The position numbers are program-made. A stretch of DNA of 64,000 bases from NCBI RefSeq assembly GCF_054482525.1, contig NZ_CM137006.1. The stretch is one strand, 5' to 3'. Numbering within the stretch: position 1 is the first letter of the stretch; each line of letters opens with the position of its first letter. This document shows positions 51,001 to 54,000 of this stretch, in pieces.

Positions 51001-54000
51001 AAACAGTCGACAAAATAACGCAACTTTCTCATCCGTGGATAATACGGAAACGCACTGCACAGGACTCTGCGGTTTACGTCACCATTCAATCCCATAAGCT
51101 TCAAGTTATGTTTGCCCTCAGTGCAGCTAATTCATCACTGTCAGATTTATGAACCATATTCGTTACCTGTATCCGATCCACTGAGGCACCACGGCAGAAA
51201 TTCGGGTCCCCTACACTGATGACAAAGCGCCCCGCCCTCTTCTGCCTATTAACTCAAGCACCTCCCAACAACTTACAGAAACTTAATTCTAATACCTAAT
51301 ACAACTGTAATTCAGTTATGTCGTGGTCGGCCCCGGTTGCTTTTTTCGGGAAGCCTGCTACGGCCCAGAATAATACCGTGTTCTTTCTGATCCTGTTTAG
51401 CCAGGTAGCTAAGGGCGTAACGTAAACCGTCTACCGCAGACTTATCACTATAGTGAATCACGTGATCGATACGCACCGGGTATTTGTCTTTAGTACTGCA
51501 CAGGTGAAAATAACCCTCCCCTTCCGTGATCCGACTCCAGATATCTCCCAGTTGCCTGGATATCCGATAAAATTTCTTGTGACGTTGCCCATCCAAGTAG
51601 CCGATAAAATGAATATGAAGTCCCTTGTTTGACGTATATTCCATTACCCAGTAATATCCCGCCAGCATCGTTTGGGTTTCACTAAGTAAGCGGTGCATTT
51701 CAATACACATACTGTGCCTACAGGAATGACCAAAACTGGGCGTGTCTTTCCTGTAGGCAAAATCAATTCTGAAAGGTAACAGTTTAGAAAAACGTTGAAA
51801 CAGACCTTCCATGTGTTCATTCACGTCTTTCAGAATCATGAAGTCCATTTCGTAATTGGGATTAGCATTATACATTTTATAGTCCTTACTTTATAAAAGT
51901 TACAGGAAGGTGGAATTACATAAATACTGAGAGTACAGAAACGCCGTACCGCGGCATTAATAAACGAGGTAACCAGCAGCACAGACAACCTGATAAAACT
52001 GTTTCGTATTACCTCATTACTCCAAAGAGGTAATATTTCAGAGTACAGTAAGACTCACTTAAACTGAGGACCAGTACGAATTACAATGGTAAAAACACAC
52101 CTCATAGAATTGAGTTTAAGGAAGTACCATTCAATCACTTACAGGAAGTAATCTGACATTCACAAAAGCCAGTATCGGGTAGCCACAGGCAACACCGCTA
52201 TTAATACTTCTGTACCATTAAGTAAAAACAGCGACCCAGCTTAAGGCCTCTACAGATATTTAACTTCACCATAAAAATGATGGTATACAGACCATACCCC
52301 ACACACCATAAGAATATTATTTCATACAGGAAAGATTATATTTTTTCATACCTATAAACTGTAACAGAGCCATAACATACTCTAATAGTGTTCCGGTACG
52401 TAACCAGTGTTAAGTGCGTACAAGACAACATAACAGATCACATAACTTCCACTAATAATACTAATTAACCTAAATTATTTATTGAACACGAAAACAATGA
52501 AGGCCCCACCTCACCTCAGACTAAAGCCGACAATATCCTGAGCAACACTCTATCCAATAGTAAATAGTGGTTACACCAGTTATATTTACTGACTGACCTG
52601 TACCAGAGTTTTCTAATACAACGCTGACATGGTAAAGACATTAGTCTCCTCCGCAAGTAGCAGAGGAGACTATATGTACTCAACGATTAAGTCGTTCAGA
52701 GGTCAAAGTTAGGTGCGACACACAACGTTTTTCCCTCAATAACCGGTACAACTCTGTTTTGTTCATACAGTAAATCCAGTAACCAGTTGATTTTATCCTT
52801 TTTCCGGAAACGGTTCGGACCACGCTGTAAAATGTCATTTTTTTTCATACAGAGGATCCCCTTCTCAATACAATAGCTTTTTATCCAGTTGAAAAGTTCA
52901 AGCTCCTCTGGAATGAGTCGCACAGGTACGGTCAGGGCAGAGTTGTCAAAAGTTAACGGATTAGACAACCGCACATACTCATTACCGTACCATATTGCTA
53001 ATTCTCTCGCCATTTCTGCAGTGTAAGGGGAAATCTCCCCCTCTTCACCGCTCGAATGGTAAATAAGTCCTGCCAATCTTGCCATATACTCTGCATTTTT
53101 AGCAGCATATTCCCGGCAATGTCTTAAAGGCCCCAATCCCCCCAGCTTCGATTCCACATCATTGTAATAATCCGTCCAGATTCTGGCAGCCTGAGGAGAA
53201 AAGTGAAGGCAACGTCGTTCACCACTCATCGCCAGACTTTCATCAATAAGCTCATTGATCCTCTCTTCAAACAAATCCTGATACTGTGATGAATAATTAT
53301 CTCCGGTTATTATCCTTGTCCCCTGCGTTGATGTTGGTTGACACATCAAAAACCTTGCATGATGTCCTGACGTTTTCACAATTTCTTTTTTTCGCGTACA
53401 AAAACCTTTGTGGTAAACATCAGGCTGAATCATCACCGATATCGTCAGTCTTGGCTCCTTCAAATTAATTCCGGGAGATGATTTCCTGTCGATGAAAAGA
53501 GAACCTCCATCCCACAAAGTGTTAATAATTCCCAGTTTACTCATGGCCCGGCTGTCAAAAATTACCCCCCCTTCACTGGATACAAGAGCAAAAGAGCGAT
53601 TGCTATCGGAGTAATATTTTAACATTCCCTCTATCGTTGTCTCATTAAAAATTGTTCGACGTATCTGCGGCGGAACAGGAGGTTTATTCAGATGCGTTTC
53701 AAGCTCTGATTCTGTTGCCTTGTAATCTTTACCGGCACGAATCTCTTTATGAAATTTTGATTCCAGCGCTTTTTGTTTTTGCTCCCATATTTCCTTTTCT
53801 GTACTGTAATTCTCAACCAGTTTCGCGTATTCTTCCGCCAGGGCTTCATCCCTGAGATAAAATGCTTTCATAAACACTTTATCCACGGTCGTTTTCCTTT
53901 CACCGGAATCAGCCAGAATCAGAGAGTAAAGATTAACAGGCCCATGTAAATTTCCAGGTCTGCATACGTCAATCTGATTCTGACAGGCAATTGAGATCGC

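What the first reader, a model, noticed from the sequence alone, without database searches (positions are those of the whole stretch)
51876..52695. 820-bp AT-rich ORF-free gap inside the integrative-element backbone
No ORF of 60 aa or more on either strand between the DUF3987 and YfjJ-like genes; the gap ends with a 9-bp-stem inverted repeat (AGTCTCCTC...GAGGAGACT at 52643..52671). Candidates include a replication origin or iteron region, an sRNA, or regulatory DNA of the satellite.
Basis: inference. Interest (0 to 1): 0.4.

Follow-up and report, generated by a model that had tools for sequence, protein, structure and literature searches.

The report
Regulatory spacer upstream of Gp2-like gene
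The 820-bp gap is real non-coding DNA in an E. coli genomic island, best read as a terminator, one deeply conserved promoter/operator-like motif and a long fast-evolving leader for a rolling-circle-type nuclease gene; it is not an iteron origin, a structured RNA or a dead gene.

Summary
Window 51876..52695 is the longest ORF-free stretch in the window, has GC of about 0.37, and ends with a strong hairpin. The same unannotated gap occurs in about 1560 of 5426 complete E. coli genomes.

Four readings failed their tests:
- Iteron origin: no tandem repeats, no k-mer excess, no DnaA boxes, no P4 iterons.
- Structured RNA: no Rfam match and no conserved structure in 12 or 25 diverse homologues.
- Small conserved ORF: none convincing.
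- Decayed gene: no hit for the six-frame translation among 5.8 billion proteins or in Pfam.

One element is deeply conserved: AATTWAGGTTAATTRGTATTAT, at 52455..52476 on the minus strand. It lies upstream of Gp2/YfjJ-type genes, in the same orientation, across Enterobacterales (99 of 120 metagenome loci; most of the rest are truncated contigs). It holds an inverted repeat next to a -10-like TATTAT.

The Gp2-type protein has HUH-nuclease motifs and fold. The roughly 570 nt between motif and start codon is a lineage-specific, near-neutrally evolving leader. Other lineages have 130-180 nt there, or about 1 kb including an hha gene.

Best reading: yfjI terminator(s), a regulated promoter/operator, and a long 5' leader. 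Main rival: the motif is the HUH nick site or origin. The same 23-mer occurs in Erwinia jumbo phages; this is unexplained.

The parts
52696..54147 (-). yfjI-family gene (DUF3987, 483 aa); its stop codon bounds the gap
   Evidence: Pfam DUF3987 E 3e-84. Annotated 'YfjI family protein' in E. coli homologues.
52642..52672 (-). T1: 13-bp stem, 5-nt loop hairpin 24 nt after the yfjI stop. Likely yfjI transcription terminator or 3'-end stabiliser, with a weak U tract.
   Evidence: -26.4 kcal/mol, z -6.6. Conserved in yfjI-linked homologues L003 and L004.
52485..52528 (-). T2: second hairpin followed by a U-rich tail (UUCAUUGUUUUCGUGUU), just upstream of the conserved motif. Candidate insulating terminator.
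   Evidence: Not significant on its own (z -1.2). Variants keep a hairpin plus U-rich tail with a different stem sequence, for example AUGAGG-AGACCC-CCUCAU-UAUUUUUG.
52447..52480 (-). Conserved cis element AATAATTTAGGTTAATTAGTATTATTAGTGG. The 22-nt family pattern spans 52455..52476, with the core AGGTTAATTAGTATTAT at 52455..52471. The -10-like TATTAT lies at 52455..52460. The inverted repeat AATTWA-GG-TTAATT lies at 52463..52476. Inferred promoter plus operator of the Gp2-type transcription unit; the rival reading is an HUH nick site.
   Evidence: It is the only part of the gap conserved in distant genera. It is invariant in 14 E. coli variants. It occurs once per locus, always upstream of and co-oriented with a Gp2-type gene. 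There is a single copy in the window against 0.12 expected.
52253..52446 (-). Variable part of the leader: T/G-rich, many indels (other variants carry a 150-nt insertion, and a 40-nt segment is present here), about 75% pairwise identity.
52223..52252 (-). T3: weak hairpin followed by the near-invariant CUGUUUUUAY. Candidate leader attenuator, low confidence.
   Evidence: (z -0.2). Three unrelated stem sequences occur among 14 variants, but the stem does not abut the U tract. The segment is deleted in L056.
51888..52222 (-). Proximal leader, about 90% identical among variants. Contains the hairpin TATTACCTC-N11-GAGGTAATA (52007..52035) and the ancestral 5'UTR piece TGTAATTCCACCTTCCTGTAAC.
   Evidence: (identity 0.904 against 0.900 at Gp2 third codon positions).
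51883..51887 (-). Shine-Dalgarno AAGGA, 7 nt before the Gp2-type ATG (51873..51875)
   Evidence: Read directly from the sequence. Invariant in all variants.
51312..51875 (-). Gp2/YfjJ-type gene (187 aa): HUH-like nuclease with a C-terminal RGRPR AT-hook
54772..55152 (-). AlpA-family HTH gene of the island (ORF as listed; the likely ATG is internal). Candidate regulator of the motif.
   Evidence: Pfam Phage_AlpA E 9e-19. In most other genera an AlpA-family gene directly follows the Gp2-type gene.

Best explanation
The gap is the regulatory intergenic region of the island's Gp2-type (HUH-nuclease) transcription unit. It is not an origin with iterons, a structured RNA or a dead gene. Reading along the minus strand, which is the direction of both flanking genes, the proposed parts are as follows. 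(1) yfjI transcription ends at a strong hairpin (T1, 52672..52642), backed up by a second hairpin with a U-rich tail (T2). (2) A roughly 25-bp element conserved across Enterobacterales (52480..52447) carries a -10-like TATTAT. Immediately upstream, in the promoter-spacer position, sits an inverted repeat AATTWA-GG-TTAATT and no recognisable -35. I read this as a factor-dependent promoter whose spacer is an operator for a small DNA-binding protein. Candidates are the island's AlpA-family protein, the AT-hook of Gp2 itself, or H-NS/Hha-type silencers acting on this very AT-rich DNA. (3) Transcription then crosses a roughly 570-nt untranslated, T/G-rich leader that is lineage-specific filler and evolves at about the neutral rate. 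It may contain a weak attenuator (T3). The transcript then reaches the invariant Shine-Dalgarno sequence and ATG of the Gp2-type gene. Shown by computation: the anatomy, the conservation pattern, the strict motif-gene association, and the negative results for iterons, RNA structure, ORFs and homology. Inferred: that the motif is a promoter/operator, the identity of the binding factor, that T1 and T2 terminate, and that the leader is transcribed.
For: The motif is the only deeply conserved piece of the gap. It occurs once per locus, always upstream of and co-oriented with a Gp2-type gene: in 30 of 58 loci with the exact pattern and in 99 of 120 metagenome loci, most of the other 21 being contigs that end too soon. 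A second Gp2 paralogue in L049 has its own copy. The motif stays at the 5' end of the unit whatever lies between it and the gene: 128-181 nt, 556-802 nt, or 925-1160 nt including an hha gene. This fits a promoter at the head of an operon. The hexamer is TATTAT, TATAAT in the diverged L015 clade, and TGG-TATTAT (extended -10) in the L034-42 clade. The same 23-mer is conserved in jumbo phages that have no Gp2 homologue, in a 46-nt intergenic gap where a perfect TATAAT faces the next gene. So the motif works without the HUH protein. T1 is highly significant. The leader has no conserved ORF and no homologue. It has no conserved RNA structure and no repeats. Its identity, 0.904, equals that of Gp2 third codon positions, 0.900. 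The window's last 35 nt before the ribosome-binding site match sequence found 50 nt after the motif in the long-type loci. This suggests that about 450 nt were inserted into an ancestral short 5'UTR. An AlpA-family gene is in the island and follows the Gp2-type gene in most genera.
Against: There is no transcription data: no TSS, no RNA 3' ends, no binding assay. There is no -35 element, and the simple promoter scan did not call the motif on the minus strand. It called a 9/12 site on the opposite strand overlapping the motif, at 52430..52459. In some genera the second base of the putative -10 is G or T (TGTTAT, TGTAAT, TTTAAT), which is poor for sigma-70. In compact loci the upstream gene is divergent, so the motif could serve that gene or act bidirectionally. 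T2 and T3 are not significant on their own. The adjacent gene encodes an HUH-like nuclease, whose cis site is classically just upstream of its own gene, so a nick-site role is a serious rival.
Confidence: 0.55

Rival explanations
1. Rolling-circle origin, nick site or oriT. In this reading the conserved motif is where the Gp2-type HUH nuclease binds (its AT-hook on AATT tracts) and nicks, for example within AGTATTAT. This would start rolling-circle replication or transfer of the excised island, with YfjI (DUF3987) as helicase. The gap would then be analogous to the Ff phage intergenic region upstream of gene II.
For: The Gp2-type protein has invariant HUH and Tyr motifs and an RGRPR AT-hook, and an HUH-like fold. 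The motif is strictly linked to Gp2-type genes. From my own knowledge, the core resembles HUH nick nonamers (TAGTATTAC of circo- and nanoviruses) and, in E. coli variants, the f1 nick region TTTAATAGTGGAC. [quoted passage not shown]
Against: There is no stable hairpin at the motif (-3 kcal/mol, z +0.4). The inverted repeat is lost in the L015 clade, whereas the -10-like TATAAT is kept. The identical 23-mer is conserved in jumbo phages that lack any Gp2 homologue. The GTGG that makes the f1 resemblance is confined to E. coli variants. There is no second origin-like feature and no repeats.
Confidence: 0.2
2. The leader, or part of it, is a functional RNA. One form would be an sRNA of about 220 nt running from the motif to T3. 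Another would be a cis-acting regulatory 5'UTR that senses a signal or is a target of processive antitermination, as in P. aeruginosa PalpB-tB.
For: The candidate promoter and a hairpin plus U5 tract are about 220 nt apart. Three unrelated stem sequences sit in front of the near-invariant CUGUUUUUAY. Long leaders recur in independent lineages. A conserved element in the promoter spacer with terminators in the leader is the known architecture of AlpA/Q-type antitermination.
Against: There is no Rfam match. The structure conservation index is 0-0.5 and z is no lower than -2.6, the same on both strands. The covariation term is only -2.5 kcal/mol over 828 columns. The segment is riddled with indels and T3 is deleted in L056. 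T3 is not significant and is non-canonical. P. aeruginosa AlpA shares only its name with the Pfam Phage_AlpA family, as far as I know.
Confidence: 0.15
3. Iteron-type (theta) origin for the YfjI/DUF3987 protein, as in the SaPI/PICI ori located 3' of rep or the P4 ori/crr.
For: The position is right, immediately 3' of a putative replication helicase gene, and the DNA is AT-rich.
Against: There are no tandem repeats. Direct repeats occur in only 2-3 copies of 9-12 nt, at chance level. No DnaA box and no TGTTCACC-like iteron lies in the gap. The yfjI-proximal part is not conserved when the upstream gene differs (L005, L006). K-12 CP4-57 has only about 150 bp here.
Confidence: 0.04
4. Decayed protein-coding gene, for example a dead hha-like gene. 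In this reading the gap is a pseudogene remnant with no function.
For: A related lineage does carry an hha-family gene between the motif and the Gp2-type gene. The proximal leader evolves at about the neutral rate.
Against: The six-frame translation has no hit at E<=0.01 among 5.8 billion proteins. The minus-strand frames have no Pfam hit. tblastx against distant loci finds nothing. Similarity to Hha is not significant (best E 1.2, on the wrong strand).
Confidence: 0.06

Closest known systems
Ff (f1/M13) phage intergenic region upstream of gene II (plus-strand origin, minus-strand origin, packaging signal)
   Same: A large non-coding region lies immediately upstream of a gene for a gpII-related (HUH) protein. 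A short, highly conserved AT-rich sequence sits at its distal end.
   Different: The Ff region is densely hairpinned, whereas here there is no significant or conserved structure. There is no sequence homology. The protein here is 187 aa, and from my own knowledge gpII is about 410 aa. The element is an integrated island with an integrase, not a filamentous phage. No nicking has been shown.
Promoter-spacer regulator sites with leader terminators: P. aeruginosa PalpB (AlpA-binding element plus tB), lambda PR' (Q-binding element)
   Same: A conserved element lies between where -35 would be and the -10. A long leader with terminator-like hairpins precedes the first gene (for the known system).
   Different: The sequence is different (GGGACG there). 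No sigma-dependent pause element was identified. The terminators here are weak. The island's AlpA belongs to the Pfam Phage_AlpA family, and any relation to P. aeruginosa AlpA is untested.
SaPI/PICI replication origin and P4 ori/crr
   Same: AT-rich non-coding DNA lies next to the element's putative replication gene in an integrase/AlpA-type island.
   Different: The defining iterons are absent.
yfjI-yfjJ intergenic region of CP4-57 in E. coli K-12
   Same: Same gene order (alpA, yfjI, yfjJ-type) and the same kind of island.
   Different: It is only about 150 bp, with at best a degenerate version of the motif. The 820-bp version is a different, expanded lineage.
Symmetric (bidirectional) sigma-70 promoters
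   Same: TATTAT on one strand reads TATAAT or ATAATA on the other. In compact loci a divergent gene lies on the other side, and in jumbo phages the opposite strand faces the gene.
   Different: There is no TSS evidence here for either direction.

Membership tests
Iteron-type replication origin (SaPI/PICI ori, P4 ori/crr, iteron plasmids) | Several direct repeats (iterons) for initiator binding | tested here: not met
   TRF found 0 arrays. Repeated 8-11-mers are at shuffle level, P 0.12-1.0. No TGTTCACC within 1 mismatch lies in 51876..52695.
Iteron-type replication origin (SaPI/PICI ori, P4 ori/crr, iteron plasmids) | DnaA boxes and/or an AT-rich unwinding element next to the initiator gene | tested here: inconclusive
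   There is no DnaA box in the gap (5 in the whole window, 6 expected). The DNA is AT-rich (GC 0.35-0.40) and adjacent to yfjI.
Rolling-circle double-strand origin / HUH nick site | An adjacent gene encodes an HUH endonuclease | tested here: met
Rolling-circle double-strand origin / HUH nick site | Nick sequence conserved across the initiator family | tested here: inconclusive
   A conserved 17-23-nt motif exists. However, it also occurs in jumbo phages without the initiator.
Rolling-circle double-strand origin / HUH nick site | Nick site presented in a hairpin or cruciform (most plasmid, gemini- and circovirus origins) | tested here: not met
   The motif region folds at -3 kcal/mol, z +0.36. 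The inverted repeat has a 2-nt spacer and an all-A/T 6-bp arm.
Rolling-circle double-strand origin / HUH nick site | Site-specific cleavage with covalent Tyr-DNA adduct | not testable with these tools
   Needs purified protein and oligonucleotides.
Structured non-coding RNA / known sRNA family | Match to a curated RNA family | tested here: not met
   Rfam scan of 44000..62000 at E<=1 found nothing in the gap.
Structured non-coding RNA / known sRNA family | Conserved secondary structure with covariation | tested here: not met
   RNAalifold gave -57 kcal/mol over 828 columns, with a covariation term of -2.5. In sliding windows SCI was at most 0.64 and z no lower than about -3 on either strand, with 12 sequences. 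With 25 sequences z was no lower than -2.1.
Sigma-70 promoter with operator in the spacer | -10 hexamer | tested here: met
   TATTAT is present (TATAAT in the L015 clade, TGG-TATTAT in the L034-42 clade). The second base is not A in a few genera.
Sigma-70 promoter with operator in the spacer | -35 hexamer at 16-18 bp | tested here: not met
   No TTGACA-like hexamer is conserved (read). The scan did not call the site on the minus strand.
Sigma-70 promoter with operator in the spacer | Mapped transcription start and regulator binding | not testable with these tools
   No RNA or binding data are available here. Literature searches found none for this locus.
Pseudogene | Detectable homology of a translated frame to a protein family | tested here: not met
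   5.8 billion proteins, none at E<=0.01; Pfam, E<=10, none; tblastx; Hha, not significant.

The most novel reading that the evidence does not exclude
The conserved 23-nt motif may be the switch that couples this widespread family of integrase/AlpA/Gp2 islands to a helper. It could be the nick site or origin of a new minimal HUH replicon. Alternatively, because the identical 23-mer is conserved in an intergenic region of Erwinia jumbo phages that lack Gp2, it could be a promoter/operator that the island shares with, or copies from, jumbo phages. Phage infection would then fire the Gp2(-AlpA) operon. This would give a molecular handle on how such islands are mobilised; jumbo-phage transduction of Gp2-carrying islands has been reported in Pseudomonas.
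Probability: 0.12. Interest if true: 0.7.

Novelty: new member of a known kind. Interest (0 to 1): 0.33.

Why it matters
The region is carried, unannotated, by more than a quarter of complete E. coli genomes, including O157:H7 and Nissle. It sits at the boundary between the island's backbone and its variable, defence-rich cargo. Knowing that it is a terminator, a single conserved control element and a dispensable-looking leader tells annotators what to mark. It also tells experimenters which 25 bp to mutate. The conserved motif is a ready-made probe for finding Gp2-type modules and for testing what these HUH proteins do in genomic islands. If the motif proves to be a nick site or a phage-responsive promoter, it would explain how this island family is induced or moved. 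The rest of the gap appears ordinary.

Tried and rejected
- **Known RNA families.** Rfam scan of the region found no hit in the gap.
- **Tandem repeats and iterons.** TRF, the repeat finder and k-mer statistics found nothing above chance.
- **DnaA boxes and P4 iterons.** None lies in the gap.
- **LexA boxes.** None.
- **5-6-mer enrichment.** Nothing convincing in the window's gap. CTGTAAT is enriched only in the unrelated 'long-type' leaders.
- **Conserved RNA structure.** RNAalifold and column-shuffle z-scores were run with 12 and then 25 diverse homologues on both strands, with negative results. One count of structure pairs failed on a string-length error and was not repeated, because the Python controls answered the question.
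- **Small ORFs.** Only a 13-codon ORF without a Shine-Dalgarno sequence is intact in all variants, and it carries non-synonymous changes, so I rejected it.
- **Decayed gene.** The six-frame search, Pfam, tblastx and a direct Hha comparison were all negative.
- **Rho-avoidance reading of the G>C, C-poor sense strand.** Rejected as evidence, because the flanking coding regions have the same skew and compact leaders have the opposite skew.
- **ArcA or other host regulator sites.** I considered ArcA-box, H-NS-motif and PmrA-box resemblance of the motif from memory only. Spacing or sequence did not fit well enough to claim any of them.
- **Esr41.** I considered whether this known sRNA of the O157 island lies in the gap. 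The literature places it near iha, elsewhere in the island.
- **General jumbo-phage early promoter.** Rejected. Only one exact copy and two degenerate neighbouring copies occur in about 96 kb of phage Caitlin.
- **Shared proteins.** There is no protein homology between the phage genes flanking the motif and island ORFs. Gp2 homologues are essentially absent from phage genomes.
- **Divergent upstream genes of compact loci.** They have no Pfam assignment, so no repressor could be named.
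Full report
**1. The observation**

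The gap 51876..52695 lies between two minus-strand genes. One is a 187-aa Gp2/YfjJ-type ORF (51312..51875), whose start codon abuts the gap. The other is a 483-aa DUF3987/YfjI ORF (52696..54147), whose stop codon abuts it.
- No ORF of 60 aa or more lies inside; the longest is 55 aa.
- It is the longest ORF-free stretch in the window: 820 bp against 453 bp for the next.
- GC is 0.35-0.40, and the plus strand is A- and C-rich.
- Half of composition-matched shuffles are equally ORF-free. The sequence therefore simply looks non-coding; the unusual thing is its length.

It has 13-nt arms (52642-52654 and 52660-52672) and a 5-nt loop. As RNA it folds at -26.4 kcal/mol, z = -6.6.

**2. Context**

The window is E. 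coli DNA. The gap is 100% identical in many strains and is present, never annotated, in 1562 of 5426 complete genomes at 80-100% identity.

It belongs to an integrase island:
- integrase, 58184..59386;
- AlpA-family gene, 54772..55152;
- a duplicated yfjI 5' fragment, then yfjI, the gap and the Gp2-type gene;
- variable cargo beyond that.

In this window the cargo is a NERD/kinase gene split by an IS3, a 1063-aa helicase and a 478-aa ORF. In EDL933 it is a TOTE primase gene. In K-12 CP4-57 the homologous yfjI-yfjJ spacer is only about 150 bp.

**3. Which part is conserved**

I aligned variants with different backbones.
- The yfjI-proximal part goes with yfjI. It is replaced when the upstream gene differs (L005, L006).
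- The Gp2-proximal part goes with the Gp2-type gene.

I then compared the gap with 43 loci from other Enterobacterales found through a Gp2 protein profile. Only one short segment survives: AATTWAGGTTAATTRGTATTAT, at window 52455..52476 on the minus strand.

The motif's association with Gp2-type genes is strict.
- It occurs exactly once per locus, always upstream of and co-oriented with a Gp2-type gene.
- A second Gp2 paralogue in L049 has its own copy.
- A diverged clade keeps TTTGGGTTTTTAGTATAAT.
- A metagenome scan with the 22-mer returned 120 loci. Of these, 99 have a Gp2-type gene downstream on the same strand. Most of the other 21 are contigs that end too soon.
- In the window it is unique, against 0.12 matches expected by chance.

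**4. Anatomy of the motif**

The motif contains an inverted repeat, AATTAA-GG-TTAATT. The window has AATTTA in the left arm. The repeat is followed after 2 nt by TATTAT.

The hexamer varies by clade. It is preceded by TGG in one clade, making an extended -10. It becomes the consensus TATAAT in the clade that has lost the inverted repeat. No -35-like hexamer is conserved.

If TATTAT is a -10, the inverted repeat occupies the promoter spacer, centred near -21. That is where MerR-type, Q-type and P. aeruginosa AlpA-type factors bind (for the known cases). The region has no hairpin potential of its own.

**5. What lies between the motif and the gene**

The motif-to-ATG distance is trimodal:

| Class | Distance (nt) | Loci |
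|---|---|---|
| Compact | 128-181 | 27 |
| E. coli type (this window, 596 nt) | 556-802 | 57 |
| Long type | 925-1160 | 14 |

One further locus, at 286 nt, falls outside these three classes.

The long type contains an hha-family gene (Pfam HHA, E 7e-27). That gene is still preceded by about 640 nt of non-coding DNA with strand-specific CTGTAAT repeats.

The window's leader shares nothing with those sequences except two pieces. One is the motif. The other is a roughly 30-nt piece (TGTAATTCCACCTT...). It sits 35 nt before the ATG here but 50 nt after the motif in the long type. This suggests that about 450 nt were inserted into an ancestral short 5'UTR.

Within E. coli the leader is mosaic and full of indels whose lengths are not multiples of three. 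Its proximal 340 nt are 90.4% identical on average, the same as third codon positions of the Gp2 gene (90.0%). The middle part is only about 75% identical.

**6. Tests of the alternatives**

- **Iteron origin.** There are no tandem repeats and no excess of repeated or inverted 8-11-mers. No DnaA box and no P4 iteron lies in the gap.
- **RNA.**
  - There is no Rfam match.
  - The RNAalifold consensus is weak, with a covariation term of -2.5 kcal/mol.
  - Sliding-window structure-conservation indices are 0-0.6, and z-scores are no better on the sense strand than on the antisense strand. This holds with 12 and with 25 diverse sequences.
- **Coding.**
  - No small ORF is convincingly conserved.
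  - tblastx against distant loci finds nothing.
  - The concatenated six-frame translation finds nothing among 5.8 billion proteins.
  - Pfam finds nothing in the minus-strand frames.
  - Similarity to Hha is not significant.

**7. Hairpins**

- **T1** follows the yfjI stop by 24 nt and is highly significant, but it has a weak U tract.
- **T2** (about 52528..52485) is a hairpin with a U-rich tail. Its stem sequence differs between variants while the hairpin is kept. It is not significant alone.
- **T3** (52252..52223) is a weak hairpin before the near-invariant CUGUUUUUAY. Three unrelated stems occur among 14 variants, but there is a gap between stem and U tract, and the segment is deleted in one variant.

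I treat T1 as a probable terminator, T2 as possible and T3 as speculative.

**8. The neighbouring protein**

This moderately supports an HUH rolling-circle-type nuclease. It therefore keeps a nick-site or origin reading of the motif alive.

**9. An unexpected match**

The exact 23-mer AATTAAGGTTAATTGGTATTATA occurs in several jumbo phages:
- once in Erwinia phage vB_EamM_Caitlin;
- once in Erwinia phage pEa_SNUABM_9;
- with one mismatch in Erwinia phage ChrisDB;
- once in a 237-kb viral contig (L065).

By my own estimate, the chance expectation in 2.3 Gb is about 1e-4.

In Caitlin and L065, where I examined the context, it lies in a 46-nt gap between co-directional small genes and is inverted relative to them. 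The phage strand reads: stop codon, TATAAT, ACCAATTAACCTTAATT, Shine-Dalgarno, ATG. It is conserved between two phages whose flanking proteins are clearly diverged.
- Only degenerate copies occur in the two adjacent intergenic gaps. No others occur in about 96 kb, so it is not the general early promoter.
- The phage neighbours share no homology with island proteins.
- Phages essentially lack Gp2 homologues.

This argues that the motif functions without the HUH protein, which favours a transcription or regulator site. Why the phage and the island share it is unexplained. Gp2-carrying islands in Pseudomonas have been shown to be transduced by a jumbo phage.

**10. Conclusion**

- **Best explanation (confidence about 0.55).** The gap consists of yfjI terminator(s), a factor-dependent promoter/operator that heads the Gp2-type transcription unit, and a long, largely neutral, lineage-specific 5' leader.
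- **Main rival (about 0.2).** The motif is the HUH nick site or origin.
- **Lesser rivals.** A functional leader or sRNA (about 0.15), a decayed gene (about 0.06), and an iteron origin (about 0.04).

Nothing here has been shown by transcription or binding data. The promoter assignment, the regulator and termination at T1 and T2 are all inferences. As a kind of feature it is ordinary. The conserved motif itself appears not to have been described in the literature I could search.

Noticed in passing
L059 10731-10753 (= NC_031120.1 238456-238478), L065 6460-6482, L068 ~43211, 43457, 44140: The island motif AATTAAGGTTAATTGGTATTATA is present as an exact 23-mer in Erwinia jumbo phages (Caitlin, pEa_SNUABM_9; one mismatch in ChrisDB) and in a 237-kb viral contig. 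It lies in a short intergenic gap, inverted relative to the phage genes. Degenerate copies occur in the two neighbouring gaps. There is no shared protein nearby.
   Followed up: partly
Metagenome loci L075, L078, L083, L084, L086, L088 and others (motif to Gp2 distance 925-1160 nt); also L047: A 'long-type' lineage carries an hha-family gene (Pfam HHA, E 7e-27) between the motif and the Gp2-type gene. Before it lies about 640 nt of non-coding DNA with strand-specific CTGTAAT repeats, including tandem TCTGTAAT x3 in L166.
   Followed up: partly
window 51312..51875 (minus strand): The 'inovirus-type Gp2'/YfjJ-like protein looks like a minimal HUH nuclease with a C-terminal RGRPR AT-hook. Its function in genomic islands is untested. 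In most genera it is followed directly by an AlpA-family gene, forming a Gp2-AlpA operon.
   Followed up: partly
window 54150..54200 and 54620..54670; 54348..54545: A roughly 50-nt sequence (CAGCTATT..CGCTATTGTAGCGG.ATTTGCTGCTAT) occurs twice. One copy lies upstream of a 65-aa yfjI 5' fragment (DUF3987 N-terminus) and the other upstream of full-length yfjI. This indicates a partial duplication of the yfjI start region with its upstream inverted repeat.
   Followed up: no
window 47737..48950, within 48832..50649 and neighbours: An IS3-family element (HTH_Tnp_1 plus rve ORFs, ALIL frameshift pseudoknot at 48018..48134) lies next to or overlapping a 605-aa NERD/kinase ORF with weak similarity to PglW and MADS6 kinases. 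Adjacent are a 1063-aa SF1 helicase with an N-terminal kinase-like region and a 478-aa ORF. This is a probable defence cargo.
   Followed up: no
window 59783..59810 and 59843..59870 (minus strand): Two CRISPR-DR4 (Rfam RF01317) repeats lie 60 nt apart just beyond the integrase, together with a sub-threshold RtT-like match at 59604..59740. This looks like a minimal CRISPR remnant at the island boundary. ARAGORN found no tRNA gene in 58000..64000.
   Followed up: no
window 56180..57997 (plus strand): A 605-aa ORF with GC of about 0.31, much lower than the rest of the island, has no Pfam or NCBIfam match. It is conserved in EDL933 as a 'hypothetical protein'.
   Followed up: no
window ~52150..52235 (query positions 275-360): An 86-nt piece of the leader is 90.7% identical to a stretch annotated as a P27-family phage terminase small subunit in E. 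coli strain PEC41. This hints that part of the leader is a captured fragment.
   Followed up: no
Literature, E. coli Nissle (bioRxiv 10.1101/364505): [quoted passage not shown] This would fit excision or replication of such an island.
   Followed up: no
L005 and L006, distal part of their 1.2-1.3-kb gaps (alignment A1 columns 60-100): Where the upstream gene is not yfjI, the gap starts with a long, nearly perfect palindrome (CCCTGCTAATTTTGCTAACC/ATTAGCAAAATTAGCAGGG). This is probably that gene's terminator, and it shows that the distal gap is modular.
   Followed up: no
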